Positions 3,095 through 64,000 of a DNA stretch of 64,000 nucleotides are shown piece after piece. The notes beneath the pieces were generated by a model. That model did no database searches, was not told the origin of the DNA, and was given only the letters and a program-made list of their open reading frames with translations. The stretch's first letter is position 1; every line of letters starts with the position of its first letter. The position numbers were made by a program, and so were the translations under genes. The DNA is taken from the IMG/VR virus record IMGVR_UViG_3300015608_001493. One strand, 5' to 3'. Origin of the DNA: an uncultured virus (IMG/VR IMGVR_UViG_3300015608_001493) (Duplodnaviria > Heunggongvirae > Uroviricota > Caudoviricetes).

Positions 3095-4137
3095 ACTGTA
3101 CTATTATAGTAAAAAGTTAAAATAAAGTTTTTAATTCCACTGTTTGAAACAACCTCATACTGAATCTTATCTTCTTTTAAGATTGAAGTTGTCCATCCAG
3201 AAAGCGTGTTATCTAAAAGTGATGAAGAACTCAGATTTACTGTACCCATTAGGGTTCCATTTTTCTTTATCTCAATACTAATATTTCCTGAAATTGGGTT
3301 TCCTGTGCCTGTTTCAAAAGAATCAATCCTAAAACCTGAAAGAACACCATTAGATTTAATTCTTGAAAACCCTTTCATACCAAGTGAAATATCTGAGTTT
3401 CCACCAAGTGTGTTTAACCCAAATGACTCTTGAACAATATGTGTGTGCCCAACATCACTCTTGCCACTTAGTGCTGTACTCAACCCTACCACGTCAGGGA
3501 TTGTATGAGTATGCACAACAGGGGATTTGTTATCCAATGCTGTCTGTAAACCTGTGGTATCAGCAATCACATGGGTGTGCCCTACATTACTTTTACCATC
3601 TAATGTTGTTTGAAGGTTTGTCACATCAGCAATTAAATGTGAGTGTGCAGACGGGTTAAAACCTAATGGTTTGTTTTGCACACCTGACCAGTCAACATTG
3701 TCTGCTGTAACCGCAGAGTTCACCTTACCGTCATCGTTTGGATCATATACTGATTTGAGCATATCTCCACCAAACGTTTGTTGAGATTTCCAGTAATCTA
3801 ATGTTGCAGGACTTATAAACCTGTCTGTGATCGTGTTGTTTAACGCCTCAGCGTTAGTTGCTTGATAAGGAAACTCACCAACAAAACTCCATCCCGTTGT
3901 ATCTGCAAAATAATAACCTTTCGGATAGTAACTGCCTCCTAACCAAGTTGGAATCCATTTTGATCCTTCCGAGTTTTTCACCATCCATACTTCACCTTGA
4001 TGAGAACTATAAGAAGGTAAAGCGGAATAGTTTGTTACTATTCCGCTATAAGGAGCACCACCACTACTGTTATGTATTAAGCATTGAAGAACTTTTAAAA
4101 TTCTTTCATGCTTCGCTACTATTGCTTCTAACCTCAT
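3091..4137 (-). CDS. Tail fibre protein with His-x-His phage tail repeats
   Basis: About 3.5 tandem 22-aa repeats H(S/T)HxIxDxxxLxxxLxxKS, typical of phage tail repeat-like fibres; GDMLKSVYDP motif. Confidence 0.75.
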   Translation of the reverse strand: MRLEAIVAKHERILKVLQCLIHNSSGGAPYSGIVTNYSALPSYSSHQGEVWMVKNSEGSKWIPTWLGGSYYPKGYYFADTTGWSFVGEFPYQATNAEALNNTITDRFISPATLDYWKSQQTFGGDMLKSVYDPNDDGKVNSAVTADNVDWSGVQNKPLGFNPSAHSHLIADVTNLQTTLDGKSNVGHTHVIADTTGLQTALDNKSPVVHTHTIPDVVGLSTALSGKSDVGHTHIVQESFGLNTLGGNSDISLGMKGFSRIKSNGVLSGFRIDSFETGTGNPISGNISIEIKKNGTLMGTVNLSSSSLLDNTLSGWTTSILKEDKIQYEVVSNSGIKNFILTFYYNSTV

Positions 4138-10900: not shown

Positions 10901-13900
10901 TTTATACCCTTTAATTTGATCTTGATTGATTGACCCTGTGAGGTTAAGAACAGCAAAATAAAAATCAGGATGGATAAAAGCATCACCATCACCAATGTTA
11001 GTTGCTTCGTATGGGGAAAGAAGTTTAAACTCTTCTTTAATTTCCTCGTCAGTTTGAGTAACTCCTATCGCTTGATTATATTGTTTTTTAGACTCTAAAT
11101 ATCCTTGTTGTAGTTGTCCTGACTTGAAATAAGCAGATTCTTTAACATCATCTTTTATAGTAGCGCTTCTATATTTGTTAGATACCTGAAAGGGTTTTCC
11201 AAGTATCTTAGAGAAAGATGTTTTTTCTAATTGGTTGTTAACCCAGTTTGTAAGTGAAACAGATGTACTTATAGGTGTCCCTGTGGATTGGACACTTTTT
11301 GCACGTTTGAAATATTTCCAACCCTGAGAGATATCCCCTTGAAACAGGATTGTTTCCTCCACGTGAAGAGTCATAGCATTAAGATCAAACCATGCTTGTC
11401 TTACATCTTTATAGCGAGCATAATCCTTGGAGAGGTCTGTTTCCTTTCCAAGAACTTTAAGAGCCTCTTCACCACCCATAAGACTAAAATAATATTTGTA
11501 GTCTTTGAGTCTTTCATCAAAAAACTCAGAAAGAGATTTAAGTATAGCAGATTCGTGTAATGAGGTCCCGTCTTTGATAATGTTTTCTTTTAATTCATTG
11601 GATAGGATGTTTCCAAAAAGACCAAATGTTTTACCTCCTTTACGAATACGCGCTAATTCTCCGTTTAGATAATCGAGCCAAACCCTCCCTATATAAGAAT
11701 CAGATGTTACATTATATTTTCCGTCACTAAATATTTGCTCAATGTCTGTAATTGAAAAAGGTGTGTTTTGTTGATAGTTTTTGTTCCATGTCTGAAACCT
11801 AAACCCATAACAAGTAGTAGCGGTTTCAGCACGAGTATTTTCGATTATACCACCTTTCATCATAGTGATATAGTTGAACAAAAACCACTCACCCTCTCCA
11901 AGGTCTGTTGTCAGTTTACCTTTTGATTGTGAACCTCGGGAAACTTCTTTTTTACCACTCAGTGTATCTACCATTAACTTGTTTGAAGTTCGTTTGTTAC
12001 CTTCAAACATTAAAGACTTTGAAATAGAATACTCAAACATGTCGTTCTTGGTACGAGTTACCTTTTCTTGTAACTCTTCAAGAGTTTGACTGTCATTATA
12101 ATATTTACGATCTTTAAGAATCGAGTTGAAAAGAGAAAGAACACTTTGGTTTTCACCCTCTGCGTTTTTAACCATCATTGAGGTAGTGATAGGTTTAATG
12201 GTATCTTCTCTTTTTACTATTTTTTTAAACTTAGCGTTTAAACCTGCGATTTCGGTACTTCCTGAGTATTGATCCGTAGAAATAAAATCTGCAATCTGAA
12301 TATCAATATTTTCAAAGTTTGAAAGAAACTTAAAAAGACTAACCTTAAAGTCTAAGTAGGTTTCATCTTTACTGTTTTTATCCTTCCAGATTGTCTCGTT
12401 GTCAAACGAGAAACCTAACTCTTGAATTACTAAATCTCCAAGTGAACCCTCTGCCTTGGATATATCTAACTCACCGTCCTCTCTAAAAAGGTTCTTTTTG
12501 GATTCAAAATATTTCTTGACATTAAACTTACCTGTTTCAGAGTTGTAAAACTTTCCTATTTCCCCAGTAAGGTTGTTGAGAAAGTTTGTATTATAAATAT
12601 TCTTTGCGGTTGGGAAAATGTCTTTTCCCTCATCTATTAAGTGATAACCGTTATCATCTACAAGAACTACATAAATACCTACTCTGGCTCGTTTAAAAGA
12701 AGACTCAATTTTTTGTTTAACTTCTGCATCAAACGAGTTTTTAATATCACTTTTTAAACGATCAACAAACACATACGCTTCTGGAAGAACTTTCAAAAGA
12801 GTAGGGTCAGTTTCTAACTTTTGAATCATTTCCTCAAAAGAAAGAGAACCTTGAAGTTTATCTGCCAGAGTATTCCAGGTGTAATAATAATCATTAAGTT
12901 GAATCCGCCCCAACGAGTTTGTTGCAAACTTGATATAGTTTTCAGAGTTAGGAACAGGAATAAAATAAGAAGATTGTGTAGGGTTATCTTTTAAGAACTC
13001 TTCTTTTTGCTCTTTGGTATAAAGTTTGGCATTGTTACCTACTCGCTCAACCGAAGGAATCATTTTAACAAAGATTCTTGCTATTTTATCCGCAGCATCA
13101 ATGGAAGATATTTCCATTCCTGTTCTTTCAAAGAACTTGTCATTTACAACATCTTCCCCGTCAGTAATTTCTTTTTCTGCGGTTAATCTTTCATTTTCTG
13201 TTTCCTCAATCTCATCAACAGGTTCAATGGTTTTTTCATCTGGTTTTATCTTAGAGGGTCGTACCTTAGCAAACTCAGTGTTTTCAATCCAGTAATCTTC
13301 AAAAAAGTCTTGGGCAACAATAGTATAAAACAGTTCTTCGTTTGGTGTAAACGAGTCCTTTAAATCTGTTTCATCCTTATAGTTGTTATGGAGATGTCGA
13401 TATACTTGAATAAAGTTTAACTCTCCGGTAATAAAAGCATTAAACAACCCATTATTAAAAATATAGGATGCTAAATCTGCATCCACTGATTGAATTAAAG
13501 ATTTGAGAAACCCTTTATCTATTTGATTCTTAGAGACAAACTCGTTAAGAGAAGCCTCATCATAACCCAAGGTTAAAGGCTCAACCGTCTTTTTCTTAAA
13601 CCCAAACTTTCCAGTCTGTGGTTTTTCTTGTGTCGGTTCCTTTGTAGAAATTGCAACGATCTTTGTGATCAACTCATCATAAACTGAATCTGTTCTTGAT
13701 ACACCAAGGATTTTTTCTACAATCTCTTTAAGTGTATCAATGATAGATTCAAACAGAGACTTATCTTTAACCTTAATAGATTTAAGTTGTGCTGCTATAT
13801 CAGGGTTGGCTACACTTGCTAAAATTTCATACGGGTTCCTGTAATATTCAGCAATTGTCTCAGGGAGTTGTTCAATTAATTTATTAAGCCTCTGAACTAA

Positions 13901-15736
13901 TGGATCACCTTGATTTTCTTGAATCCAATCTTTTGTAAACACATGAATAGCCTCATGTGCAAGAATTGAACTCATCATAGTGGGGTCTGTGATAAACGCG
14001 TAGTTTATCTCAATTGTGTTACCTACTACACCCCCTTTGAAATCTTTTGACCTGTTATCTACAAACTTGATTTTTTTACCTTTCAGATGTTTAGCGCTTT
14101 TTTCATTCTGCGCTAAGAATTGAACAAGTCTCAAACTTTCTCTAACTGAACCGTCTACCTGGTTTGACAACGCAGATAAATCTTCAAGTATTGAAGAAAG
14201 TTCTATCTCCTCATTTGGAACAATTTCGATTGACCCTATTTTTGGGTTTTCAATTTGTTTTCCAACTTCTTCAAGTTTAACACTTTCTCTCGACTTGACA
14301 TCAAAGAGAAAAGATTTGGCTGAAAAGAAATAAGGTTTCCCTCCAACTTTCACTTGTCGAGAAGGAGTAGTATGATGCTCTAAATAAAAGTTTTCCCATT
14401 CTTTTGCAGAAAGAAGCCTATTTTCAACCTTTTTATCTTTAATGTAGAACGCGGTACCTCCTTGATTGAGGTAAAAGGAATCCACATTAATTCGAGCATA
14501 GTCTAACAAATCACTTATTTCGGAGTCTGGAACTTGTTCAGATTTAACTCGAATAATCTTATCACCCTCTCTTTTAGAGTGTCGATAGGCTATAATCTTG
14601 TTTCCTCTTGAATAAAATGTTACATCACCTCCTTTGAACGAAAGAAGGTTATTTAAGAACACAACAACTTCTTCTTGGTTTCTGTCATAAGTATGGTTGA
14701 GTAAATCTGTTACTAACTTCTTCCACTGAGGGTTTAATGGAGTTCTGTTTGTTGGAATTTTTTCTCCATCTAAGCGAAGAAATAAGTTACCTGCATAAAA
14801 CACTCGATCTGTATCAGATGCAATTTGAGCAAAACCTTCTCGTCCTTGTAAAAACGTTTTGAGGGAAATAGGACTACCTGTTGGAAACTCTTGCCAAAAA
14901 CCTTTAACTTTAAAATAATCAGAAGGAGATTCCAATGCTTGTCCTCTAATACGAGTGATTTCTGCAATCACCTCTGCGTTTACAGGGTTTTCACGCAACT
15001 GGTATTTAGGGTCACTAAAATCTGGAACTGTTAAAGTGAACAGTTTACTTTTATTCCATCCTATTTTAATTGCCTCTCTTTCATCGGTAGTAATTTCTGC
15101 CTTCCCGGTAGGTTCTTTATCGTAAGATTTGACATAGACCCTTTTGAAGTCATTTCCCACCTTTTCGTAAAGAACACCAATAACCCCAAACTTTTTAAAT
15201 ATAGAGGGGTCAATGTTTTGTACGTTTTCTGCGTTATCAGGTTCAAGTCTGACAAAAAACTCTCGTTCAGGTTGAATATCAAGAATTTCTTCTACTGCTT
15301 TACCTACCTGGTTTTTAATCTGTGCAACCTCTTCTTCACCTTGTAAAACGTCATCAGTACCTTTTTCATATATCTTAGTGAGAGTATAGAGATAAGGAGG
15401 ATGATCTAATGCAGATTGAAACTGTTGAAAATCACCTTCATTAGTTACAGATGTTTCACCAGATTGATCTTCTACTTTTAATTCAATTTCTGGAAGACTT
15501 GCAGTAAGTGAAACAGAAATTAAATCGTCTATTGTTTCAAAAACAATATCGCTAAAAGCAGGAATTTTGTAGCCTTCCTCTGTTTCTACTAACTCTGTGA
15601 TTTTCCCTGATAAAGGAATAACCCCGGAGGTAATACCTAATTGAAAACTGTTTCGAAACTCTGAATAAGAGTCAAACTCGTTTTTACCCAGAAAATTGCT
15701 GAGTACAATATCATTTATTTTTAATTTACACTTCAT
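5000..15736 (-). CDS. Virion-packaged RNA polymerase polyprotein (zincin domain + crAss-type RNAP + SF1B helicase + SLOG/cpYpsA-like + ASCH-like domains)
   Basis: 3578 aa. HEAIH zincin motif (~13950); YRIPTQG and GTDYDYDKL catalytic DxDxD (~9590); helicase motifs GKAGTGKTT, DEASMV, GDIGQLPP, HKSQGSTY and YVGLTRAR; C-terminal YxxRTxxN / LNIAGNG / TGGQTG motifs. Confidence 0.9.
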   Translation of the reverse strand: MKCKLKINDIVLSNFLGKNEFDSYSEFRNSFQLGITSGVIPLSGKITELVETEEGYKIPAFSDIVFETIDDLISVSLTASLPEIELKVEDQSGETSVTNEGDFQQFQSALDHPPYLYTLTKIYEKGTDDVLQGEEEVAQIKNQVGKAVEEILDIQPEREFFVRLEPDNAENVQNIDPSIFKKFGVIGVLYEKVGNDFKRVYVKSYDKEPTGKAEITTDEREAIKIGWNKSKLFTLTVPDFSDPKYQLRENPVNAEVIAEITRIRGQALESPSDYFKVKGFWQEFPTGSPISLKTFLQGREGFAQIASDTDRVFYAGNLFLRLDGEKIPTNRTPLNPQWKKLVTDLLNHTYDRNQEEVVVFLNNLLSFKGGDVTFYSRGNKIIAYRHSKREGDKIIRVKSEQVPDSEISDLLDYARINVDSFYLNQGGTAFYIKDKKVENRLLSAKEWENFYLEHHTTPSRQVKVGGKPYFFSAKSFLFDVKSRESVKLEEVGKQIENPKIGSIEIVPNEEIELSSILEDLSALSNQVDGSVRESLRLVQFLAQNEKSAKHLKGKKIKFVDNRSKDFKGGVVGNTIEINYAFITDPTMMSSILAHEAIHVFTKDWIQENQGDPLVQRLNKLIEQLPETIAEYYRNPYEILASVANPDIAAQLKSIKVKDKSLFESIIDTLKEIVEKILGVSRTDSVYDELITKIVAISTKEPTQEKPQTGKFGFKKKTVEPLTLGYDEASLNEFVSKNQIDKGFLKSLIQSVDADLASYIFNNGLFNAFITGELNFIQVYRHLHNNYKDETDLKDSFTPNEELFYTIVAQDFFEDYWIENTEFAKVRPSKIKPDEKTIEPVDEIEETENERLTAEKEITDGEDVVNDKFFERTGMEISSIDAADKIARIFVKMIPSVERVGNNAKLYTKEQKEEFLKDNPTQSSYFIPVPNSENYIKFATNSLGRIQLNDYYYTWNTLADKLQGSLSFEEMIQKLETDPTLLKVLPEAYVFVDRLKSDIKNSFDAEVKQKIESSFKRARVGIYVVLVDDNGYHLIDEGKDIFPTAKNIYNTNFLNNLTGEIGKFYNSETGKFNVKKYFESKKNLFREDGELDISKAEGSLGDLVIQELGFSFDNETIWKDKNSKDETYLDFKVSLFKFLSNFENIDIQIADFISTDQYSGSTEIAGLNAKFKKIVKREDTIKPITTSMMVKNAEGENQSVLSLFNSILKDRKYYNDSQTLEELQEKVTRTKNDMFEYSISKSLMFEGNKRTSNKLMVDTLSGKKEVSRGSQSKGKLTTDLGEGEWFLFNYITMMKGGIIENTRAETATTCYGFRFQTWNKNYQQNTPFSITDIEQIFSDGKYNVTSDSYIGRVWLDYLNGELARIRKGGKTFGLFGNILSNELKENIIKDGTSLHESAILKSLSEFFDERLKDYKYYFSLMGGEEALKVLGKETDLSKDYARYKDVRQAWFDLNAMTLHVEETILFQGDISQGWKYFKRAKSVQSTGTPISTSVSLTNWVNNQLEKTSFSKILGKPFQVSNKYRSATIKDDVKESAYFKSGQLQQGYLESKKQYNQAIGVTQTDEEIKEEFKLLSPYEATNIGDGDAFIHPDFYFAVLNLTGSINQDQIKGYKALVYDMRKNALDYFSKEEIQEFGIVRELTEEEEKIRVEGLKLIEKGKVVFPKLKYTQRGPGFKNGETGPVVSEVMDKFALTPLFPQFTKGKPVAKALLKTMMVENIGYTKFESGTKIANFGISDFISKVENGEVQVSLEDSAHELKVEYLAEQIKTPNKVKEKNTFGSQFRKLVQSGLSLVGLDPLIEEWEKANQEFSNLTKQEVLKEFGIVDNQGVLDYSKMNLETVADILLKESKRRDLPENLTVFFDKFKQGKLTEGERQNYYKYFEASLGNQQIQNLLASIVKKIAVQKLSGAQLIQVSSSIFDRKLANKNGKTRELGFYHFKDGKVQAAECKVSMIGDFKNLLNLPEVSDRLEVNGKEDNILNRTEALNQLLLKDEFVEKFKDQLTIVGYRIPTQGLNSMEVMVVREFLPSFYGPTLVCPPEITTQSGTDYDYDKLSVIFPSISEEGQLSENGVKGVQNRMIRASKEILLHPINYYKLITPNSPDYIFNKVKPVLKDLNIQYEEPKGTMVVTLKGNFSKFRTLKSKNLLGVAAVWNTFYSLMQRHKWRVNGTYGILDFKGATLTTSKINPVLLDEKERSKRFVDGQFNVALPNTADGTPKSEVISQLINVTVDMPSDDTFGQTNFDISDFAASIYASSVLGYDYDSILKLWHQPIIYQYKRKVDDLVKQGRKPWMAKLQITSDLLGVEIPIQIRGGFPVPNYSEFEKQLYQEDGILDRFENQLKLESPKFDIQKVMEEPVTNQQRAAFAHYLKLLSQANAIRVTQSALNFDTSPDNNMMKVQEREENYLKAIRIKIVDRAQIDEVKTNSVISGLYTSDILKNIIKRIFPILYSDNNLNFFGQASSNYRDQETAYRLLTSDFLLAVVQSFGTHNGLIFNQAIEFLQGDKSLNLTKEARRIKTKLKKEGLNLRLLDILIVNISKHRPDRVFNQQIFLGFENSPDDKNKITEEFRTLLSREDTKAFAENLALVGLIQSGWSKSNIYFSDLIPEEFVTPIITEALDNYTKLTPNQRKRFRALFYEHFKSYRKDSLTSEKKNNSESYRLMDYTKNLDFIYQVEEPQDDTQDVEFEDSDLSNPLNIVLNKEQQNAIDQAIEFIETGNANDFYIIEGKAGTGKTTIAEKIVKAFPGKTTVVAALSHKATKVIEDKFKQSGVRAKFYTLASLFGESLDLETGQFTDKKNLVSAPPVTKADIILIDEASMVNEEILEKLFDKKPKGAKVIFLGDIGQLPPIRTVENPYFKNRQHLFEKKSPVFDTSNKSRLVTRVRQGEANPILPFADFFWENSQKLNPSENPVPNENRVNQITPNGNLIFINAFADVQDFLISEFFKAIKEKNPNHVKVVTYRNNTRQFINNTVHHAIFGPDANPFEEGELIIFNDSFGEIENATEAQVVTVSPADKDQNGIQYVDLEIVYDNRLTTISVVLESDKKKFNDIVSEKFKVAFAAKGTVAYSRLLQEAWAYKQAFANIDYGYAITSHKSQGSTYNIVVVDEKDILSVGPITAKEKSESIYVGLTRARNTAIVISGTPVETQSINFEDVTNQVPLLESGSLPQQTVIKTLGQLPRQQSYENGGFMNDPESNYYGNQIVVLEDNGDFLFVWDKEEGDRYSIPKKYFSKLNPLIVSNNIQFQEEQSTGYKERTIKNASADATLALAIDFETAGEKLTKSSVQSQGKKYMPINANNFEITQERIDKIVDTLNSIGKEDSSVADIPQNLVSGIEVFGTKQEANAEAKKILGNTPHSIDMIEAGIRTRTTRSVGEMEKYNIKVGDIVKQFGKSADGTTKQILTRVTAIHPKGTPGFLGTWNKEGWTQEGIKAIERYKDGAAAIEFEIVTKQELKEISLNIAGNGIYTMKGKYTQQQVDEFTYQLLKAVIESPKLKVKINSIRTGGQTGFDEAGAKAGIKLGIPTTILAPKGWTFRNKEGQDISDETLFKARFGEKSKGSSQLSLFGYDEQSKRCIGF

Positions 15737-56279: not shown

Positions 56280-56603
56280 GATGCGACTCACAGGCTCCGT
56301 GAGTATAATTAGGACAACCTGATCCCTATATCATCAATAGGGCGCGACAGTCTCTTCGTTGAGACACAATGGTAGTGCGTGAAACTACTATTTTTTAACT
56401 CGTCTGAGCGAGTATAAACAGTCATTTAGGCTCAGAGCGTTCACATTGATGTGAGATATGAATATTAATGATTGCAAACAACTGTTTGACCAACAGTGCC
56501 AACTCTGATATTTCAGGATGTTGGTCAAAATTTCGTTGTATCAAATTGAAAATAGTCAAATTGTCTACATCCTGAACAAGACGTTAAATAAAGTAGGGAT
56601 TAA

Positions 56604-56914: not shown

Positions 56915-57619
56915 ATGAAAAGTACAACCATTGCGACGAACCCTCAATTCTTCCTTACGGCCGGCGGAAATGTGCTCGCCTATGGTGGCCAGTACGCGGC
57001 ATTTCATAATGTTGAAGGAGACTTCCTGAGAATGGCGTCTCTTGAAGAGGCCGAGTTCCTTGCTGGCGTGTTGCAGCCGGTGAACTTCCCGGCCGACCGG
57101 ATGCCAGATTTTGAAAACCCCAGCGAATGGGTTTTCTTATGGTCGGTCAAATCCAGCGATTATTCCAATTATCGGCCGGAAACGTGTAATAACGGAGGCG
57201 ATTACGCCTTCTATGTTACTACCTCGTACTATGCTCGTAAGACCCGAAAGGGTTGGCAGTTCTGCGCCCTGGATGTTCATGGAACTTCGGCAGAATTTGA
57301 TTACGACGAGATAACTGGAAATTTCCAGTCCACGACATGGACACCTGTGATTGGGGCCAGCCACGAAATTGCTCTATATGTTCAAGGCGACGGCTCACCG
57401 CTTATCTTGGATGAAATCACGAAAACGGTAGGGTTACCGTTCAATGCTACCGATATTATTAACGATCCTAACGATGAAAACCCTATGGATTGGGCTGTAA
57501 TACTGCCCACATTTTCCGAACTTCGTAGGCGCGCATTGCGCCTACGCGAAATTGGGTTTACACGTCCTAATGCCCACCAACGTAAAGGACGACGTGGTAA
57601 TATGAGCAAACGCCGATAA
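56915..57619 (+). CDS. Hypothetical early protein
   Basis: 234 aa; TCNNGGDY and TSAEFDYDE motifs; basic tail. Confidence 0.75.
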   Translation: MKSTTIATNPQFFLTAGGNVLAYGGQYAAFHNVEGDFLRMASLEEAEFLAGVLQPVNFPADRMPDFENPSEWVFLWSVKSSDYSNYRPETCNNGGDYAFYVTTSYYARKTRKGWQFCALDVHGTSAEFDYDEITGNFQSTTWTPVIGASHEIALYVQGDGSPLILDEITKTVGLPFNATDIINDPNDENPMDWAVILPTFSELRRRALRLREIGFTRPNAHQRKGRRGNMSKRR

Positions 57620-57772
57620 AAAAAAATATTTAACTGGTTCTTATTTGCGTCAGCAATAAGCGTAACACTCAACCAGTTAAAATTCCAAATCCTATCATCC
57701 ATAGAGTCTCTCTCCGTGCTCTCGATAGGTACTAAGGAGTGTAAACCCAACGATGTAAATTAGTTGGTTTCT

Positions 57773-57847
57773 GGACTCATCGCCAAGTTGGTGAAGGCAC
57801 TTGACTCATAATCAAGAGATACACAGGTTCGAACCCTGTTGGGTCCA
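57773..57847 (+). tRNA. tRNA with CAT anticodon (elongator Met or Ile2)
   Basis: Acceptor GGACTCA/TGGGTCC; anticodon arm CTTGA-CTCATAA-TCAAG; GGTTCGAACCC T-arm; no encoded CCA. Confidence 0.9.
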
Positions 57848-57872
57848 CTTTATATTCATTAAAGTGTCAATT

Positions 57873-58115
57873 ATGAAAGCAGAGGAAGCGAAAAAGAAAA
57901 CTGAAAATGCAATTCTAACAAACAGTAATAGTTTGTTAGATCAAGTTTATGCAAAAATCGAGGAGGCTTGTCAAAAAGGCGAGTTCTTTTGTAAAATAAA
58001 GGAACTACACCCTTTGATTAACGATAAACTTGTCGAAGACGGGTTTAAAGTTACATTTTACCCTGGTGATTATAGAGGCGAAACAGACGCCTATTATAAA
58101 ATATCATGGGAATAA
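57873..58115 (+). CDS. Hypothetical phage protein
   Basis: MKAEEAKKKT...LVEDGFKV...KISW, a common small phage protein pattern; start moved downstream of the tRNA. Confidence 0.75.
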   Translation: MKAEEAKKKTENAILTNSNSLLDQVYAKIEEACQKGEFFCKIKELHPLINDKLVEDGFKVTFYPGDYRGETDAYYKISWE

Positions 58116-58785
58116 AAAATAACCCAAGTAACGAACTCAGGCGAGGTAGTTATGAGGGTTTAACTAATAACAACTGCCGAACATCCGCGATAAGGACTAC
58201 GGAGAGTATATAATGTGAGAGTTTCGAACTCACCAGTTGTTTTTTTTTTCATTTTTCATTTTTCATTTTATGACACTAATTTTGAACCCGTCAGGCTCAC
58301 TGAGCAGTGACAAAGATTACGATTGGGACACCAAGTGAACCTGTAACCCTTGAACACTTAGGGTTGGTATGTGAGAAAGTGTTACGTTACGGTGAGAATC
58401 CATAACAAACATGTGGGGCTTATGTCTTGAAGCACAATAGAGCATTGCAAATTGTGTAAAATACAGTATAAGGGAGAAATCCTAAACGAGCAATAAAATT
58501 TTATACTGTACATATCAAGCATTAGTGCGGACTTAGCACATATTTAACGGAACTATTGTTGGTGGAATAACAAGTATTTACTTGCCTCACAAAATAGGTT
58601 ATGTGCAAAACATCATGTAGTGGTACAGCCTTAATCTGTACAAGTCTTAAATAAAATTCCTCTGTGGCAGTAAAACCACATGATAATTAAAAAGATTCAC
58701 AAGAGAATAGTCAATATCTTGTCCCGACTGTTGGGTAAAACAGTAGTCGTTAAAGGTTAACTCACTACCTAATTTTAAAAGTGAG
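58116..58785 (+). ncRNA. Structured noncoding tract
   Basis: 670 nt without a long ORF; many stems (AACAACTG/CAGTTGTT, AACCCT/AGGGTT, TACAGTATAA/TTATACTGTA, GTACAG/CTGTAC). Confidence 0.45.
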
Positions 58786-59179
58786 ATTTAAAATTGTAAC
58801 GGATATGCAATTTGAATACCAACACAAAGTAGGGACAGACTACGTAACTGTCAATTTTTATAGTATCAACAAGTTAAAGGAAGAATCTCGCATCAAACTA
58901 TATGAGGTTCTTAATAAACTTGGAATGACATTTGGAAAAGGAGGTGAAATCAGATTTCCTTCTTTCATTACCTCACAAGTCCTTCAAGAAGTAATCCACA
59001 ACACTTGCTTTGTATGTGGAGGACTGATGAAGGATTCTACGGCGTTAGATAATACTTATGTAACAAGTGTTGATTTTCCCGGAGAAACAAATTTAAGAGG
59101 ATGTACTCAATCCAAGATTGGTTACCCTGTTATGAAAAATGTTCGCAAATGTTCAAGTTGTGGACATTCACACACATAA
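58781..59179 (+). CDS. Hypothetical protein with zinc ribbon
   Basis: CFVCGG...KCSSCGHS; start may be ATG 58805. Confidence 0.7.
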   Translation: MRFKIVTDMQFEYQHKVGTDYVTVNFYSINKLKEESRIKLYEVLNKLGMTFGKGGEIRFPSFITSQVLQEVIHNTCFVCGGLMKDSTALDNTYVTSVDFPGETNLRGCTQSKIGYPVMKNVRKCSSCGHSHT

Positions 59180-59189
59180 ATCAAAACGT

Positions 59190-59492
59190 ATGAATCAGTT
59201 TTCAAACCAAAATTCAGAACGTATTCGTTACTGGATTAAAAATAACATACATATGGTTTGGGATGCAGTAAGAAAACTGCAAGAAATCCCAAATCAGTCC
59301 ATGATTCTTCGTATAACATTTTACAAAGAGTCATACCCCATTGTAATGCAATGGGCCAAATTGTCTAGCCCTGAATTAGGTATCGGTACGGATAATGAAA
59401 GAACAGATTTCATATCCGAAGATATGTGGTTAATTAGTGGAGAATTTTCCTCAATTAACGCCTTTGCTGATTGGGTAAACAATGTAAAGTAG
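59190..59492 (+). CDS. Hypothetical protein
   Basis: MNQFSNQ start downstream of the previous stop. Confidence 0.65.
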   Translation: MNQFSNQNSERIRYWIKNNIHMVWDAVRKLQEIPNQSMILRITFYKESYPIVMQWAKLSSPELGIGTDNERTDFISEDMWLISGEFSSINAFADWVNNVK

Positions 59493-60330
59493 TAAGAACA
59501 CTGGGATTCCAACAGACTATTCTATTGTAGTACGATAAACTACATTAAAATAAGTGATCCTGTAAATTGTAGGTGGACGTAGAACTTCGGTATGCGTTGT
59601 TGCAGGGGACTTAAAAACCTTCTTAGTTTAGATAGATCATACTCTTGATTGATTCTAAATGAAAAATAGAGATACTCATGTATTGAAATCCAGTTAAACT
59701 ATTCTTGAATGAGCCAAGATAGAGTAATAGTTAAACTGGTAAACACTCCCTTGAAAAAGAGGATGTCAGTTCCTTAAATGGAAATAAGAATTAGTTTAAT
59801 AATCAATACTAATTCGAGGGCAAGCAGGCTGATAGCCACAGTAGATAACATAAATAAGACAGAATTGGTATGAGATAATACCTATATCTTTAAGGTCGTT
59901 CTGTTATGGCTTAGTTTTAAAATAGCCGTTATCAAACTGTTTAATATGCGTTTTGTATATCTCTATGTAATTAGAGTCCTGTGAAAATCAGCAATACATA
60001 GTTCATCCTATAAATTGCACCTGATTACAGTGATATACAATCCTAATTGATTAACTCAAAGGCCAAGAGTTAATTGATATTGTGCGCGAGGAATGTCAAC
60101 ATTCCTCAATAGAAAGTTTAAATTTATACCACCTATAAGAAATCATTGCCTCTTCAAGGTAACATTTTCAAACCAGTAATGGTGAGATAATGAAGAGTAA
60201 ATTAGATAAGTAAAACCTGACCTGTTGGAATGAAATCAAATTGAAAGTTAGTTAACTAACTGGGTCTTATAACCTCGTAAAACTGCGAGAGGCGCAAAAA
60301 CAAATAGGAGGAATCATTTTTGATTCCAAT
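59493..60330 (+). ncRNA. Structured noncoding tract
   Basis: About 840 nt without an ORF of 60 aa or more; stems GAATTAGT/ACTAATTC, TTGTATATC/GATATACAA, TTAACTC/GAGTTAA and GAGGAATG/CATTCCTC. Confidence 0.45.
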
Positions 60331-60339
60331 TATAAAAAT

Positions 60340-60648
60340 ATGAATATCAATATTCAAATCAACCTGACCAAAGCATTAGCAGAAGGATGCGTCCTTACTG
60401 TTAATCAAAATGGAGGGTTGTACTGTCCCAAGGGACAGGAAAAGGTTCGGACACAGAAGGTGGTGCAATCCATTCATCACCTAAGTGCTCTTACTATTAA
60501 CCATTTTTTGAACTATCCGTCTGCAAAATATAATGCAGATCAGTTCAAGAAACTCTCGACCATTGCTCGTATTAATGCACATATTGAAGATATGTTGCAT
60601 GATATGCGTGGTCGCGGTGTTATTGTGACAAGCGCTACACTTGTTTGA
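60340..60648 (+). CDS. Hypothetical protein
   Basis: 102-aa ORF after a TAAAAAT leader. Confidence 0.7.
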   Translation: MNINIQINLTKALAEGCVLTVNQNGGLYCPKGQEKVRTQKVVQSIHHLSALTINHFLNYPSAKYNADQFKKLSTIARINAHIEDMLHDMRGRGVIVTSATLV

Positions 60649-60744
60649 ATCAAAAAAACCCTGCACTGATCATCGGGTAATAGAGGATCACTTTCAACGG
60701 GATGTAGCGCAGTCCGGTAGCGCACCTGCTTTGGGAATATTTTA

Positions 60745-60776
60745 TTTGAATTTTCCATAGCAATTTCGTATATTTG
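60745..60776 (+). promoter_or_regulatory. Bacteroidota sigma70-type promoter for the HNH gene
   Basis: TTTG-N20-TATATTTG exact consensus ending 4 nt before the ATG (probably leaderless). Confidence 0.8.
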
Positions 60777-60780
60777 TTGT

Positions 60781-61134
60781 ATGAAAACAAATTGTACAAA
60801 ATGCGGAAAGGAGATAAGTAAATCTCCATCTCAAATAAAACGTTCAAAAACTGGTAATTTATACTGTAGCAAGAGTTGCGCAGTAAGTAACAATAATAGT
60901 CTATTTAAACAAGGAAGAAATCATCCTAACTATAAAAGCGGAATAAGCTTTTATAGGAGTTTAAAACTCTCAAATATAAGTAAACCAAAATGTGAACGGT
61001 GCGGTATAGAACACCCATGTTTACTTCAAGTTCACCATATAGATGAAAATAGGAAAAATAATGACTTGTCAAATCTGATTATTTTATGTGCAAACTGTCA
61101 TCTACTTGCTCATTGCAAGATACCAGAATCTTAG
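60781..61134 (+). CDS. HNH homing endonuclease with N-terminal zinc finger
   Basis: CTKCGK...YCSKSC; CERCG...VHHIDENRKNNDLSNLIILCANCHLLAH. Confidence 0.92.
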   Translation: MKTNCTKCGKEISKSPSQIKRSKTGNLYCSKSCAVSNNNSLFKQGRNHPNYKSGISFYRSLKLSNISKPKCERCGIEHPCLLQVHHIDENRKNNDLSNLIILCANCHLLAHCKIPES

Positions 61135-61188
61135 CAAGAGGTCCCAGGTTCGAATCCTGGTATCCCGACATTTTTGAATAAAAAACAT

Positions 61189-61311
61189 ATGGAATATTTT
61201 ATTGTACCATTTGCAGTTTTGGCCGTCCCTGCGGCAATTTATTTTCTTTTTAAAGCCTATGCTTATAGGCCAAAAAACTCTAACTCAAATATAATTGATG
61301 ACGACTTCTGA
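61189..61311 (+). CDS. Small membrane peptide (40 aa)
   Basis: MEYFIVPFAVLAVPAAIYFLFKAY...; A-rich leader; overlaps the next start. Confidence 0.5.
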   Translation: MEYFIVPFAVLAVPAAIYFLFKAYAYRPKNSNSNIIDDDF

Positions 61312-61774
61312 ATTTTACCAAAATTTATACCGATATATTCAGCATCATCGACAAACAATTAATGAGAACGTTGAAATGTTGGATGAAGTGTTTGTCCAAA
61401 CCTTTAATCTGAAAACCGTACTGTATCAAAAAACCAGTGTTCTAGATACTGATTACGATTGGAAATACCTTTCAGAATTAGGTCTAACAGGCAGTGTAGA
61501 AGGATGGATATTTGCTGAGGTCAGTGATATACCTTCTGAGTTTGAAGGCTGGAAGGTTAAAGCGGTATTTGTTGAAAACTTACCTGATCCGGATGACTGT
61601 AATTGGACTGAAAAATCGGTCTATATTACAAAGACAGCAATGATTATGACCGATGTAGATCGTATGTTTGCGATATATGATCGTGAAACAAATAATAGTT
61701 CAGGACTGATGAAATATATAGATTACTTAAAGTGGTTTAACTTTCATTTAGTGGAGTTAGAGAAACTCCACTAA
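61295..61774 (+). CDS. Hypothetical protein
   Basis: 159-aa acidic ORF. Confidence 0.7.
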   Translation: MMTTSEFYQNLYRYIQHHRQTINENVEMLDEVFVQTFNLKTVLYQKTSVLDTDYDWKYLSELGLTGSVEGWIFAEVSDIPSEFEGWKVKAVFVENLPDPDDCNWTEKSVYITKTAMIMTDVDRMFAIYDRETNNSSGLMKYIDYLKWFNFHLVELEKLH

Positions 61775-61988
61775 ATGAAATTGGAGGAGGAATGGCTTGA
61801 GGAAAGTAATTTCATGGCGGGGAGTCTGATGTAATATTAGACTCCCATTTTAAAATAGAAAAATTGGTTTCACGATACCCAAACGTACTTTTTGATGAAA
61901 ACATGGTTCAACGAATTAAGGATTTTGTTGAACATTGTAGTTATAACTATTATGGGAATTTACTTACGATTTAAACATAGATCCAACA

Positions 61989-62213
61989 ATGTTTAGTTTA
62001 TTTAAAAAATCCGAGCGTTTAGATATTGCTGAGAAAATTCTTGAAAGAGATAAACGTTTTAATCAGCAATACCAGGACGCTCTGAAAATACACACCTTAG
62101 AAAAAGTCGTTGCGTTTTGTATTATGGTAATTGTTGTTTTTATCATATATTTGCAACTTCCTAAATACAAGGAAACAACTCATTACAAAGAGTATTATGA
62201 ACAAAATCGCTGA
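61989..62213 (+). CDS. Small membrane protein
   Basis: Single TM segment VVAFCIMVIVVFIIYL. Confidence 0.6.
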   Translation: MFSLFKKSERLDIAEKILERDKRFNQQYQDALKIHTLEKVVAFCIMVIVVFIIYLQLPKYKETTHYKEYYEQNR

Positions 62214-62227
62214 CTTTTTGTAATTTA

Positions 62228-62590
62228 ATGCTTATGACCAGTTTACAAATTGTTCAAAAAATAATTCAAAGTTGGGAAATGGACGATTATCTCGACTTTC
62301 AGATAACTACTCAACCCGTCTATATTGATGAATATTTTAGTGATAATAATGTTCATGTAATGCAAGAATGTTTGGTTATTATTGCCAAACATAAGCAAAT
62401 AACTGTTTTGCCCGCCGACTGTCATGCAGACTATACAGTAGAAACATATCAAACAGATTGTGTGAATGCAATTGATTTGTTACCATTTTCAATAGTGGTG
62501 TTTGAATCGTTTTTCGGTATTCAAATTTTTGATGGATATAAAAATTCAATTTTTGAATGCTCAACGGATTTACTAAAGATTTTAGAATAA
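62228..62590 (+). CDS. Hypothetical protein
   Basis: 120-aa ORF. Confidence 0.6.
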   Translation: MLMTSLQIVQKIIQSWEMDDYLDFQITTQPVYIDEYFSDNNVHVMQECLVIIAKHKQITVLPADCHADYTVETYQTDCVNAIDLLPFSIVVFESFFGIQIFDGYKNSIFECSTDLLKILE

Positions 62591-62624
62591 CAGTGCTGAA
62601 AAGGTAGACCTTTAAAACTTAATA

Positions 62625-62711
62625 CGAGATGTGGCGAAACTGGTAGCACGCAGCAGACTTAAAATCTGCCGAGCAGGAATGCTCATACGGGTTCGAGTCC
62701 CGTCATCTCGA
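62625..62711 (+). tRNA. tRNA-Leu(TAA)
   Basis: CGAGATG/CATCTCG acceptor; GCAGA-CTTAAAA-TCTGC; long variable arm; T-arm. Confidence 0.92.
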
Positions 62712-63017
62712 CTCTATCGTTAATAATTTTAGTAATAATGTCTAAATATTTTTGAGAAGTTTTTGGTGTGATATATGATTGCTGACTTGTATCTATTATA
62801 CATAGATCAATTTTCGCATTTTGGGCTTGATTATCAAGGTTGTCAAGACGAAACTGATTTCAACCAGTTTCTTCGAACACATGTTCGTTAAATTAAAATA
62901 AAATACTAAATATCATAAAGTAGGGAAAGACCTCTGGATAAGGAACTATTCCAGTAGGTCTTCAAAGTTCCAATGTGATAAAAAACTTACGGTGATGAAA
63001 TTGGAATAAACCGTATT

Positions 63018-63089
63018 GCCGGATTAACTCAGTGGTAGAGTAACTGTTTTGTACTCAGTAAGTCAGGGGTTCGAATCCCTTATCCGGCT
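63018..63089 (+). tRNA. tRNA-Thr(TGT)
   Basis: GCCGGAT/ATCCGGC acceptor; ACTGT-TTTGTAC-TCAGT anticodon arm with a U31-U39 mismatch. Confidence 0.85.
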
Positions 63090-63178
63090 CTAAACTAAAA
63101 ATTAAAATTCTGAAAAATTATATACTTTAAAATGAATTTTTTATTATTTATATAGTTGTATTAGGAGGCTTATTTATA

Positions 63179-63475
63179 GTGGCTTTTGACATAGCATCTG
63201 CTATGTCAATTAACTATGTCGAAGCAACGATTAAAGATTTAGTTTCTCAGCAAAATATTTCTGGATCAAAAGATAACACGAAAACCAATTTCAGATATAT
63301 TGTTATTACTGATAACGAAACTTTTATTGTTGAAAATAGTATTCTTAATGGTAAATTTGATAATTCGAACTTGTTTTTTCGTCTTGAAAAAGATAAAAAA
63401 TACAAGTTTAAAGTATCAGGATTTGGAAAAGGGTTTTTAACAGATTATCGAAACATTTTGTCTTATTCTCAATAA
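63179..63475 (+). CDS. Membrane-anchored phage protein (true N-terminus probably upstream, frameshifted)
   Basis: YIVITDNETF...KFDNSN...KFKVSG..YRNI domain; hydrophobic in-frame extension upstream without an ATG. Confidence 0.6.
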   Translation: MAFDIASAMSINYVEATIKDLVSQQNISGSKDNTKTNFRYIVITDNETFIVENSILNGKFDNSNLFFRLEKDKKYKFKVSGFGKGFLTDYRNILSYSQ

Positions 63476-63482
63476 GACAATT

Positions 63483-63569
63483 GGAGAGTTGGGTGAGTGG
63501 TTGAAACCGACGGTCTTGAAAACCGTTGTACCTGCAAAGGTACCGTGGGTTCGAATCCCACATTCTCCG
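63483..63569 (+). tRNA. tRNA-Ser(TGA)
   Basis: GGAGAGT/ATTCTCC acceptor, G73; ACGGT-CTTGAAA-ACCGT; long variable arm. Confidence 0.93.
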
Positions 63570-63595
63570 CTTCATAAATTTTAAGGATGGTAGGC

Positions 63596-63624
63596 AAGGG
63601 GTAGGTCAAGAGTACCTACCCCTT
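63596..63624 (+). terminator. Hairpin / terminator after the tRNA cluster
   Basis: AAGGGGTAGGT/ACCTACCCCTT 11-bp stem followed by TAACTTTT. Confidence 0.6.
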
Positions 63625-63638
63625 TAACTTTTGTAAAA

Positions 63639-63854
63639 ATGGATAGAATTAAACTTGCAATTTTATGGTTTTTGAATACTTTTTTTGAAAAGTATTTTTA
63701 TTTGTGTGTAACACTGGTTTTAATGGTACTAAACCTGTTACCTTTTCCGCAAACAGTTGGTGAAGCCTTATTTTTCACAATTGTTGTTTTTATTTTTTAT
63801 GAATTAATCGAATATCTTATCAAGAAGATAAAAATAAGTTTTACAACCATATAA
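63639..63854 (+). CDS. Small membrane protein
   Basis: Two hydrophobic segments. Confidence 0.6.
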   Translation: MDRIKLAILWFLNTFFEKYFYLCVTLVLMVLNLLPFPQTVGEALFFTIVVFIFYELIEYLIKKIKISFTTI

Positions 63855-63872
63855 AAACTCAGTTCATTGTAA

Positions 63873-64000
63873 ATGACGTTTAGAGAGTTTAATAGACAGA
63901 TCCAAAATCAATTTGATCAAATGCAACAATACAAGTTGTTTCGATTGAATTGTTCTGGACAGCAAATCTGGGATACGTATTTAGCAGGATTTACTCGTGA
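63873..64000 (+). CDS. Phage protein, N-terminal fragment (truncated)
   Basis: MTFREFNRQIQNQFDQM..KLFR...GQQIWDTYLAGF; open to the window end. Confidence 0.65.
   Translation, partial: MTFREFNRQIQNQFDQMQQYKLFRLNCSGQQIWDTYLAGFTR

What the first reader, a model, noticed from the sequence alone, without database searches (positions are those of the whole stretch)
60698..61168. tRNA-Pro(TGG) split at the anticodon loop by a ribozyme-free HNH cassette
Seen: removing 397 nt (60736-61132, or shifted by one because an A is present at both junctions) yields a complete tRNA-Pro cloverleaf. The break is right after G37 or A38, the canonical position of protein-spliced eukaryotic/archaeal tRNA introns. 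The insert is only about 45 nt of promoter plus an HNH ORF whose TAG stop overlaps the first bases of the 3' tRNA half, so there is no room for a group I or II ribozyme. Acceptor, D and T arms are intact. Known: bacterial tRNA introns are normally group I ribozymes; free-standing homing nucleases such as T4 SegB sit between tRNA genes, not inside them. Inference: this is either a protein-spliced or nuclease-plus-ligase-repaired tRNA intron carrying its own homing nuclease, a split tRNA used as two halves, or a recent selfish insertion that destroyed its own target.
Basis: partly seen in the sequence, partly recalled or inferred. Interest (0 to 1): 0.9.

Follow-up and report, generated by a model that had tools for sequence, protein, structure and literature searches.

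The report
Nuclease gene splitting a phage tRNA-Pro
A selfish DNA-cutting-enzyme gene sits, without any self-splicing RNA, exactly in the anticodon loop of a crAss-like phage's proline tRNA gene, which is otherwise a near-perfect copy of its likely host's own gene and is most probably dead.

Summary
Removing 397 nt (60736-61132 or 60737-61133) joins 60698-60736 to 61134-61168 into a complete tRNA-Pro(UGG). The insert holds 44 nt with a Bacteroidota-type promoter motif and an intact 117-aa HNH gene whose TAG overlaps G39.

No route back to a working tRNA was found:
- No Rfam group I, group II or small-ribozyme match, although the same search found group I cores in 4 of 4 control loci.
- No U at -1, no terminal G, no bulge-helix-bulge, and no pairing between the insert ends.

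The phage is crAss-like. Its closest HNH relatives (44-54% identity) are free-standing genes. In 14 of 17 loci they lie within 215 nt of a tRNA-Pro(UGG) gene, and none of 139 homologue loci shows another split tRNA.

The spliced gene differs at two sites, both just 3' of the insert, from the chromosomal tRNA-Pro of 50 of 65 genomes, mostly Saprospiraceae and Lewinellaceae. The host therefore supplies the same tRNA.

The split allele recurs nearly unchanged in DNA runs of four further studies (2016-2024).

Best reading (0.7): a homing-endonuclease cassette landed in its own target and killed a redundant phage tRNA gene. This is a new variant of intronless homing. This scan noted HNH-plus-spare-tRNA cassettes before on other DNA; here there is no spare. 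RNA-level repair is untested.

The parts
60698..60736 (+). tRNA-Pro(UGG) 5' half: acceptor strand, D arm, 5' strand of the anticodon stem, and loop through G37/A38
   Evidence: ARAGORN on the script-spliced sequence and ARAGORN -i. Its last 37 nt (60700-60736) were the search pattern, so the 65 genome loci match them by construction; the two 5' bases upstream also agree in 65 of 65.
60737..61133 (+). 397-nt insert (equally 60736-61132): 44 nt non-coding plus the HNH ORF
   Evidence: No Rfam family matches inside it at E <= 10. It folds as two closed domains, and its ends do not pair with each other.
60745..60776 (+). Promoter-like motif TTTG-N20-TAtaTTTG, ending 5 nt before the ATG
   Evidence: Pattern scan: 10 matches in the window against 3.95 expected, and 1 of 100 shuffles reached 10. 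The -7 consensus TAnnTTTG is quoted in PMC4747536 (passages seen). The -33 TTTG and the spacing are recalled.
60781..61134 (+). HNH homing-endonuclease gene: 117 aa, an N-terminal Cys-rich zinc-finger-like part plus an HNH domain. The stop TAG overlaps tRNA position 39.
   Evidence: The alignment shows the CxxC pair, the HH, the N and the CxxCH preserved.
61134..61168 (+). tRNA-Pro 3' half: 3' strand of the anticodon stem, variable loop, T arm, acceptor strand, discriminator A
   Evidence: It differs at 2 of 35 sites from the 3' half of 50 of 65 host-lineage genes.
61137..61139 (+). The only two differences from the host-type gene: A at 61137 (position 42, which makes the C28:A42 mismatch) and A at 61139 (position 44)
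   Evidence: 65 of 65 genome loci have G at both sites. X7 record 28 carries the same letters as the window (0 differences).
61191..61203 (+). Second copy of an exact 13-nt direct repeat. The first copy, 60734-60746, spans the 5' junction. The second copy is the start of a small ORF just after the tRNA.
   Evidence: these are the only two exact copies in the window. Local-alignment shuffles do not make it significant. Its meaning is unexplained.

Best explanation
A free-standing HNH homing-endonuclease cassette (its own promoter plus ORF, 397 nt) has inserted into the anticodon loop of the phage's tRNA-Pro(UGG) gene. Inferred mechanism: the enzyme recognises uninterrupted tRNA-Pro(UGG) DNA and cuts in or near the anticodon stem-loop. 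The break is repaired from the cassette-bearing allele, so the cassette is copied in. The insertion then splits the recognition site and protects its carrier. Nothing in the RNA can remove the insert, so the phage gene no longer yields a decoding tRNA. The phage tolerates this because the likely host (Saprospiraceae/Lewinellaceae, Bacteroidota) makes an almost identical tRNA-Pro. Shown here: the anatomy, the absence of known splicing signals, the link between this HNH clade and tRNA-Pro genes, the host identity of the exons, and persistence of the allele. Inferred: the cleavage specificity, homing, and loss of tRNA function.
For: The split is exact and the HNH ORF is intact.
Only 44 nt are non-coding, and they carry a Bacteroidota-type promoter motif 5 nt before the ATG.
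No Rfam match lies in 60698-61168 at E <= 10. The same library detects Intron_gpI at 48-62 bits in 4 of 4 HNH-bearing or ORF-less split tRNA-Leu loci of the putative host family.
The junction letters exclude group I: the base at -1 is G or A, and the last intron base is U or A.
Among the 17 HNH loci at 44% identity or more, 14 have a tRNA-Pro(TGG) within 215 nt (11 of 14 after removing copies of the same phage). In the gut crAss-like phages the ORF runs 15-24 nt into the 5' end of tRNA-Pro.
The window's HNH groups with these, at support 90/78.
0 of 139 homologue loci has another tRNA split around the HNH.
The spliced gene differs from the tRNA-Pro of 50 of 65 genomes at 2 sites, both within 6 nt 3' of the insert. 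The phage's Leu, Thr and Ser tRNAs are only 73-81% identical to tRNAs in five such genomes.
No RNA ligase, kinase-phosphatase or splicing endonuclease appears among the 46 window ORFs or the 7 ORFs around the tRNA.
Against: No RNA data could be laid, so non-function of the tRNA is inferred and not shown.
Both halves are undecayed. This fits a young or slowly evolving insertion, but it equally fits selection on the halves.
The ORF RNA is more stable than synonymous-codon permutations (z -4.35, 0 of 300 as stable). Six homologue ORFs gave z from -0.2 to -3.7, so an RNA-level role for the insert is not excluded.
A cassette-free allele of this same phage was not demonstrated: the one contig that skips exactly 397 nt (X11) may be the host's own tRNA-Pro gene.
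The window is part of a larger genome, so a second tRNA-Pro, or repair enzymes, may lie outside it.
No cleavage assay exists for this HNH clade.
Confidence: 0.7

Rival explanations
1. A functional, protein-dependent tRNA intron. The precursor would be cut at both junctions by an unidentified endonuclease or a new ribozyme overlapping the ORF. The halves, held together by the acceptor and anticodon stems, would then be joined by a host ligase such as RtcB.
For: The insert sits at 37/38, and removing it restores a full cloverleaf.
The halves are undecayed, and the allele persists from 2016 to 2024 in several studies.
The ORF RNA has excess structure.
RtcB is present in 5 of 5 putative host genomes.
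The phage itself carries a pistol ribozyme and a hatchet-like element 2-4 kb upstream, so RNA ends with cyclic phosphate and 5'-OH arise during infection.
Against: No known ribozyme or group I/II match lies in the insert.
The hand check for bulge-helix-bulge fails: 1 of 4 pairs in the central helix.
The insert ends do not pair.
RtcB is also found in 10 of 14 control genomes, so its presence says little.
The cassette's relatives are ordinary free-standing genes.
The C28:A42 mismatch weakens the stem that would have to hold the halves together.
Structural excess also occurs in a homologue that lies outside a tRNA (L004, z -3.7).
Confidence: 0.07
2. A remnant or variant of the 'nuclease plus spare tRNA' cassettes noted earlier in this scan. 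A replacement tRNA-Pro would exist elsewhere in the phage genome or has been lost, and the split gene is the dead original.
For: Earlier notes of this scan describe many HNH cassettes in anticodon loops that bring a spare tRNA (unchecked AI notes).
The window ends 430 nt after the last tRNA of the array, so more tRNAs may follow.
Against: The insert has no room for a tRNA, and Rfam finds none in or overlapping it.
No second tRNA-Pro is present in the 64 kb.
The exons are host-like, not an old diverged phage gene.
Confidence: 0.1
3. The two halves work apart from each other, as a split tRNA that assembles in trans or as stable tRNA halves with a regulatory or decoy role.
For: Both halves are intact.
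Against: There are no complementary leader and trailer sequences of the kind that split tRNA genes use: the start and end of the insert do not pair.
The halves lie on one strand, 397 nt apart, around an expressed-looking gene.
A nicked anticodon loop cannot decode (established knowledge, recalled).
Confidence: 0.03
4. Assembly artefact joining a host tRNA-Pro to phage DNA.
For: The exons are almost identical to a host gene.
Against: Independent contigs from four runs of four further studies cover flank plus 5' half plus insert, the whole insert, and 3' half plus flank.
The phage-specific A42 and A44 are absent from 65 of 65 host-lineage genes.
Confidence: 0.01

Closest known systems
Phage T4 SegB and intronless homing in tRNA gene clusters (PMC2330249, abstract and outline seen). 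T5 F-TflI/II/IV HNH nucleases are recalled, not read.
   Same: A free-standing homing endonuclease in a phage tRNA cluster whose recognition site lies in a tRNA gene. It spreads with flanking tRNA sequence. The closest relatives of the window's HNH have exactly this layout next to tRNA-Pro.
   Different: SegB is a GIY-YIG enzyme, sits between tRNA genes and recognises the T-arm motif. Here an HNH gene sits inside the tRNA gene, in the anticodon loop, and interrupts it.
Group I introns with HNH ORFs in bacterial and phage tRNA anticodon loops (Williams 2020, bioRxiv 10.1101/2020.01.27.920355, main text read; tables are images and were not seen)
   Same: An HNH gene inside a tRNA anticodon loop that ordinary tRNA finders miss. 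The putative host family has such introns in tRNA-Leu(UAA).
   Different: Those inserts are 719-753 nt with the ORF and 233-280 nt without it, and they match Intron_gpI. This one is 397 nt with a 354-nt ORF, has no core match, and has neither U at -1 nor a terminal G.
Archaeal and eukaryal protein-spliced tRNA introns at 37/38 (recalled knowledge)
   Same: The position of the interruption, and the absence of a ribozyme.
   Different: No bulge-helix-bulge can form. The host is bacterial. No splicing endonuclease is in the window. Those introns do not carry promoter-driven nuclease genes.
'HNH plus spare tRNA' cassettes that split phage tRNA genes, noted earlier in this scan (e1-5893821, e1-5979034, e1-6025846 and others; unchecked AI notes)
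   Same: A ribozyme-free HNH cassette in the anticodon loop of a phage tRNA gene, leaving two intact halves.
   Different: No spare tRNA travels with this cassette. The substitute is the host's own, nearly identical tRNA-Pro.

Membership tests
Free-standing HNH homing endonuclease gene (intronless homing) | HNH (beta-beta-alpha-metal) nuclease domain with its metal-binding and catalytic residues | tested here: met
   PF01844 scores 22.9 bits against a cut-off of 21.4. PHROG 1271 scores E 2.3e-16. The motif columns are preserved in the alignment.
Free-standing HNH homing endonuclease gene (intronless homing) | Not embedded in a self-splicing intron or an intein; has its own expression signals | tested here: met
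   No Rfam match at E <= 10. The promoter-like motif lies at 60745-76. Promoter activity itself was not tested.
Free-standing HNH homing endonuclease gene (intronless homing) | Lies in or beside a conserved target gene, and relatives lie beside the same gene | tested here: met
   14 of 17 closest loci lie within 215 nt of tRNA-Pro(TGG). Clade support is 90/78.
Free-standing HNH homing endonuclease gene (intronless homing) | Presence/absence polymorphism at the same site in related genomes | tested here: inconclusive
   One X11 contig skips exactly 397 nt, but it may be the host tRNA-Pro gene. No close phage relative was found in IMG/VR or in the phage records.
Free-standing HNH homing endonuclease gene (intronless homing) | Site-specific cleavage of the cassette-free allele, and biased inheritance in mixed infection | not testable with these tools
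   This needs the purified enzyme and phage crosses.
Group I intron in a tRNA anticodon loop | Catalytic core (P3-P9) recognisable by a covariance model | tested here: not met
   No Intron_gpI match at E <= 10 in 57000-64000. The positive control was 4 of 4.
Group I intron in a tRNA anticodon loop | U (rarely C) before the 5' splice site and G as the last intron base | tested here: not met
   The base at -1 is G or A, and the last base is U or A, for the two possible registers.
Protein-spliced (bulge-helix-bulge) tRNA intron | Two 3-nt bulges separated by a 4-bp helix at the splice sites | tested here: not met
   Hand check on the sequence: U32-G35 against 61127-61130 gives 1 of 4 pairs, and the other register puts G39 in a bulge. 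The minimum-free-energy fold shows no such motif.
Protein-spliced (bulge-helix-bulge) tRNA intron | A splicing endonuclease and a ligase are available | tested here: inconclusive
   Neither is among the 46 window ORFs or the 7 ORFs. RtcB is in 5 of 5 putative host genomes, but also in 10 of 14 controls. An EndA-type endonuclease was not searched for in the host genomes.
Split tRNA genes (Nanoarchaeum type) | Separate half genes with complementary flanking sequences that bring the halves together | tested here: not met
   The halves lie 397 nt apart on one strand, and the insert ends do not pair.

The most novel reading that the evidence does not exclude
The insert is a true ribozyme-free tRNA intron in a bacterial system. 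The precursor folds as a tRNA with two closed RNA domains hanging from the anticodon loop. It is then cut at both junctions by a still unknown activity (a new ribozyme overlapping the ORF, or a host or phage nuclease) and sealed by host RtcB. This would give a phage tRNA-Pro marked by A42 and A44. It would be the first protein-assisted tRNA splicing in Bacteria, carried by a homing endonuclease.
Probability: 0.06. Interest if true: 0.95.

Novelty: new variant of a known kind. Interest (0 to 1): 0.42.

Why it matters
Homing endonuclease genes are thought to survive inside genes only when a self-splicing intron or an intein hides them. Otherwise they stay between genes. Here one occupies its presumed target directly, and the cost is covered because the host supplies the same tRNA. 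That is a clean natural example of the 'naked' step in models of how mobile introns arise.

The case also shows why phage tRNA counts from standard finders can be wrong.

The two phage-specific bases next to the insert give a simple marker. With it, an RNA-seq or RT-PCR experiment can decide whether the gene is dead or is repaired by an unknown route.

Tried and rejected
Expression: no RNA holder was listed for the stretch.

Cassette-free allele: the X11 contig that skips 397 nt (depth 104.4, shorter side 29 nt) first looked like a cassette-free phage allele, since a downstream-flank contig has depth 103.4. I withdrew that reading after finding that the host-lineage tRNA-Pro is 72 of 74 identical to the spliced gene.

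Relatives of this phage:
- The two flanking proteins gave nothing useful in IMG/VR. L152 is a weak match with no tRNAs.
- TerL relatives at 55-67% identity exist. The longest records either have no tRNA match (G001) or have four tRNAs but no tRNA-Pro (G002). Synteny with G002 ends near window position 52.4 kb.
- The deposited-phage collection holds only a 42-nt tRNA match.

Looking beyond the window and into host genomes:
- A 39-nt word from the window's end has no match in IMG/VR.
- The 25-nt junction word has no match in 185,579 species genomes.
- The HNH protein found only domain-level matches in 11 of 401 genomes of the putative host family. Of the 10 that were cut out as loci, 8 lie at intron-split tRNA genes (7 called tRNA-Leu(UAA), 1 called tRNA-Ile); group I cores were confirmed in the 4 tested.

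Target-site duplication: the last 50 nt and first 54 nt of the insert, compared with the tRNA and its flanks, give local alignments no better than shuffles (270-690 of 2000 shuffles reach the score). The 13-nt exact repeat stays unexplained.

Solved structures: only generic HNH matches, best E 0.004.

Whole genome: none is held.

Full report
OBSERVATION. The sequence reads as follows:
- a tRNA 5' half at 60698-60736: acceptor strand, D arm, anticodon-stem strand, and loop ending in the anticodon TGG followed by G and A;
- 44 nt of AT-rich spacer;
- an ORF at 60781-61134;
- from 61134 to 61168, the other anticodon-stem strand, variable loop, T arm, acceptor strand and discriminator A.

ARAGORN in its default mode finds four other tRNAs in the window and nothing here. 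When a script removed 397 nt by coordinates, ARAGORN called a tRNA-Pro(tgg) gene (reported as 75 nt, one past the discriminator). Six neighbouring 396-nt deletions gave only malformed four-base anticodon calls. With its intron option on 60500-61400, ARAGORN also calls a split tRNA-Pro at score 111.2. In that call it prefers an upstream GCAAG at 61117 as the stem strand and therefore models a 378-nt intron. On the whole window the same option missed the gene. Because A stands on both sides, the break is after G37 or after A38.

THE INSERT. The ORF encodes 117 aa. It passes the Pfam HNH threshold (22.9 against 21.4 bits) and matches PHROG HNH families (best E 2.3e-16). An alignment with relatives shows the N-terminal cysteine pairs and the HNH motif columns intact. 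The protein ends soon after the last histidine, where most close relatives carry about 20 more residues. Its TAG overlaps tRNA position 39.

The 44 nt before the ATG contain TTTG-N20-TAtaTTTG at 60745-60776, ending 5 nt before the start codon. The pattern occurs 10 times in the window against 3.95 expected. The -7 element TAnnTTTG is the Bacteroides consensus (passages in PMC4747536); the -33 element and the spacing are recalled. The cassette therefore looks like a self-contained gene for a Bacteroidota host.

NO KNOWN WAY TO SPLICE.
- An Rfam search of 57000-64000 at E up to 10 lists 17 matches, and none lies between 60047 and 61708.
- The search is sensitive enough. In four loci from genomes of the putative host family where an HNH-domain match led to an intron-split tRNA gene (three called tRNA-Leu(UAA), one tRNA-Ile), Intron_gpI scored 48-62 bits in 4 of 4. 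Those inserts are 719-753 nt with the ORF and 233-280 nt without it.
- The junction letters also exclude group I: the base before the 5' junction is G or A, and the last insert base is U or A.
- A bulge-helix-bulge cannot form. With the intron after G37, the four loop bases U32-G35 would have to pair with 61127-61130, and only 1 of 4 pairs forms. The other register would put G39 in a bulge (hand check).
- In the predicted fold the insert forms two closed domains and its two ends do not pair with each other.
- The 46 window ORFs and the 7 ORFs around the tRNA contain no RNA ligase, polynucleotide kinase-phosphatase or splicing endonuclease.

One loose end remains. The ORF RNA is more stable than 300 synonymous-codon permutations (z -4.35, none as stable). 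Six homologous ORFs gave z values of -0.2, -0.8, -1.0, -1.5, -2.7 and -3.7. The excess is the largest seen but is not unique to the gene inside a tRNA.

RELATIVES OF THE NUCLEASE. Pattern-based scans found 59 loci in IMG/VR and the best 80 of 253 in metagenomes. No relative exceeds 54% identity. I ran ARAGORN with introns and a half-finder of my own over all 139 loci. No other tRNA is split around an HNH gene: one ARAGORN call that spans an HNH (L044) overlaps three normal tRNAs on the other strand, and my own candidates dissolved on inspection.

The relatives do live in tRNA arrays. Of the 17 loci at 44% identity or more, 14 have a tRNA-Pro(TGG) within 215 nt. The exceptions are L077, L079 and L081. 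After dropping three rows that repeat the same phage in both collections, the count is 11 of 14.
- In gut crAss-like contigs the HNH lies directly upstream, and its ORF runs 15-24 nt into the 5' end of tRNA-Pro, which supplies the last codons and the stop.
- In 170-180 kb phages it lies 31-213 nt downstream.

In a tree of 37 rows, the window's protein falls in a clade of 11 (support 90/78) with the upstream-of-Pro genes. Rows dropped before building were matches shorter than 255 nt, six with in-frame stops, and five duplicates. This clade is thus tied to tRNA-Pro(UGG) genes in three layouts: before, after and, only here, inside.

THE PHAGE, ITS HOST AND THE EXONS. Pfam places the phage among crAss-like viruses (CrAss_Ring_1, CrAss_Ring_2 and Crass_capsid). 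The terminase and portal match PHROGs 6681 and 6547.

A scan of one genome per species with the 37-nt 5' half found 65 loci. By their titles, 63 are Bacteroidota, and 52 of those are labelled Saprospiraceae, Lewinellaceae, Lewinella or Saprospirales. These are typical activated-sludge bacteria, which matches the wastewater and sludge runs that hold the window.
- In 50 of 65 genomes the chromosomal tRNA-Pro differs from the window's spliced 74-nt gene at exactly two positions.
- All 65 have G where the phage has A at 61137 (position 42) and at 61139 (position 44).
- Homology stops at the tRNA borders.
- By contrast, the phage's Leu, Thr and Ser tRNAs are only 73-81% identical to the best matches in five such genomes.

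The interrupted gene is therefore a very host-like copy. The host supplies the same tRNA. The only changes sit within 6 nt of the insert on its 3' side, one of them breaking a stem pair. Such a pattern is what co-conversion from a donor allele with a U28-A42 stem would leave, or repair errors at the break. That is inference.

POPULATION DATA. The stretch is held by DNA runs of 10 studies, and no RNA holder is listed. I laid contigs of four runs from four further studies.
- X7 (2016) has the whole insert with both junction sides, with 0 differences.
- X11 (2024) has it with 2 differences, one of them a synonymous GGT to GGC change at 60855.
- X14 (2021) bridges the upstream flank, the 5' half and the start of the ORF.
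- X13 (2024) has the ORF end plus the 3' half with 1 difference, followed by 170 nt unlike the window. The sequence just after the tRNA is exchanged in that variant.

The split allele is therefore real, widespread and stable over eight years. One X11 contig skips exactly 397 nt. I cannot tell whether it is a cassette-free phage or the host gene.

MECHANISM. Most likely (0.7) this is a homing-endonuclease cassette that has landed in its own recognition site. The enzyme would cut uninterrupted tRNA-Pro(UGG) DNA, repair from the carrier would copy the cassette, and the insertion would make the carrier immune. The phage tRNA gene is inactivated at little cost. The cleavage site, the homing and the loss of function are all inferred.

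Rivals:
- a functional intron removed by an unknown activity and sealed by host RtcB (0.07). RtcB is present in 5 of 5 putative hosts but also in 10 of 14 controls. The phage has a pistol ribozyme and a hatchet-like element nearby;
- a variant of the nuclease-plus-spare-tRNA cassettes, with the spare outside the window (0.1);
- halves used separately (0.03);
- misassembly (0.01).

COMPARISON AND NOVELTY. The locus works like intronless homing by T4 SegB, which recognises a tRNA motif and drags the tRNA region along (PMC2330249, abstract seen). It differs in sitting inside the tRNA gene. It is not a group I intron and not a bulge-helix-bulge intron: defining features of both were tested and not met. 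Earlier notes of this scan (unchecked) describe HNH cassettes in anticodon loops on other DNA that bring a spare tRNA. This one brings none and relies on the host's identical gene. One full-text search on interrupted tRNA genes, homing endonucleases and phages (titles and abstract starts of the 20 papers listed out of 75 seen) and the Williams preprint gave no description of a ribozyme-free HNH insertion in a tRNA anticodon loop. That is a thin search, not proof that none is in print. I rate it a new variant of a known kind, of moderate interest.

LIMITS. There are no RNA data and no whole genome. No close relative of the phage is available. The window may omit further tRNAs or repair genes. 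The contig tables cannot show rare variants.

Noticed in passing
window 56398-56461 (+): Pistol self-cleaving ribozyme, 64.7 bits against a gathering score of 34.5, on the same strand as the tRNA and early-gene region.
   Followed up: no
window 58383-58543 (+): Hatchet-ribozyme-like element, 45 bits, below the gathering score of 51 (E 8.5e-07 over the 7-kb search; 4.3e-08 over the 351 nt), with the conserved core aligned and a long variable insert. It lies between tRNA-Met and the next ORF.
   Followed up: partly
window 5000-15736 (-): A single 3578-aa ORF with a superfamily-1 helicase region (AAA_30, PIF1, UvrD_C_2) at residues about 2700-3140 and a SLOG-like domain at 3239-3312. The rest has no Pfam match.
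   Followed up: no
L001 2959-3402, L072/L075/L076 2462-2902, L083 166-573: In gut crAss-like phages the homologous HNH ORF runs 15-24 nt into the 5' end of the tRNA-Pro gene, so the tRNA encodes the last residues and the stop codon.
   Followed up: partly
L002, L007, L078, L080, L084 (HNH match regions): The HNH homologues of 140-180 kb phages carry in-frame TGA where relatives have Trp (in the NPNW motif). This points to TGA read as Trp in those phages.
   Followed up: partly
L232, L233, L235-L240 (genomes of the putative host family): Chromosomal tRNA genes split by introns next to tRNA-Gly(GCC): 7 called tRNA-Leu(UAA) and 1 called tRNA-Ile. The inserts are 719-753 nt with an HNH ORF or 233-280 nt without. 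Intron_gpI matched in the 4 loci tested.
   Followed up: partly
window 60781-61311 (+): The HNH ORF is in frame, through its TAG and the tRNA 3' half, with the small hydrophobic ORF 61174-61311. This is probably chance (1 in 3), since the window's large ORFs show no sign of TAG recoding.
   Followed up: no
run X13, beyond window 61170: A contig carries the ORF end and the tRNA 3' half (1 difference in 225 nt) and then continues for 170 nt unlike the window. The module just after the tRNA is exchanged in that variant, so a recombination boundary lies at the nuclease.
   Followed up: no
run X7, joint 60724 to 61141: Another organism's tRNA shares the D arm and T arm of this tRNA-Pro but has a different 20-nt anticodon arm. 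It stands in tandem with a similar tRNA after a 16-nt spacer (tables 5 and 5c).
   Followed up: no
L012 about 2882-2920 (-): An orphan tRNA 3' half (T arm plus acceptor strand) lies next to tRNA-Gly(TCC) and opposite a distant HNH homologue. No matching 5' half was found.
   Followed up: partly
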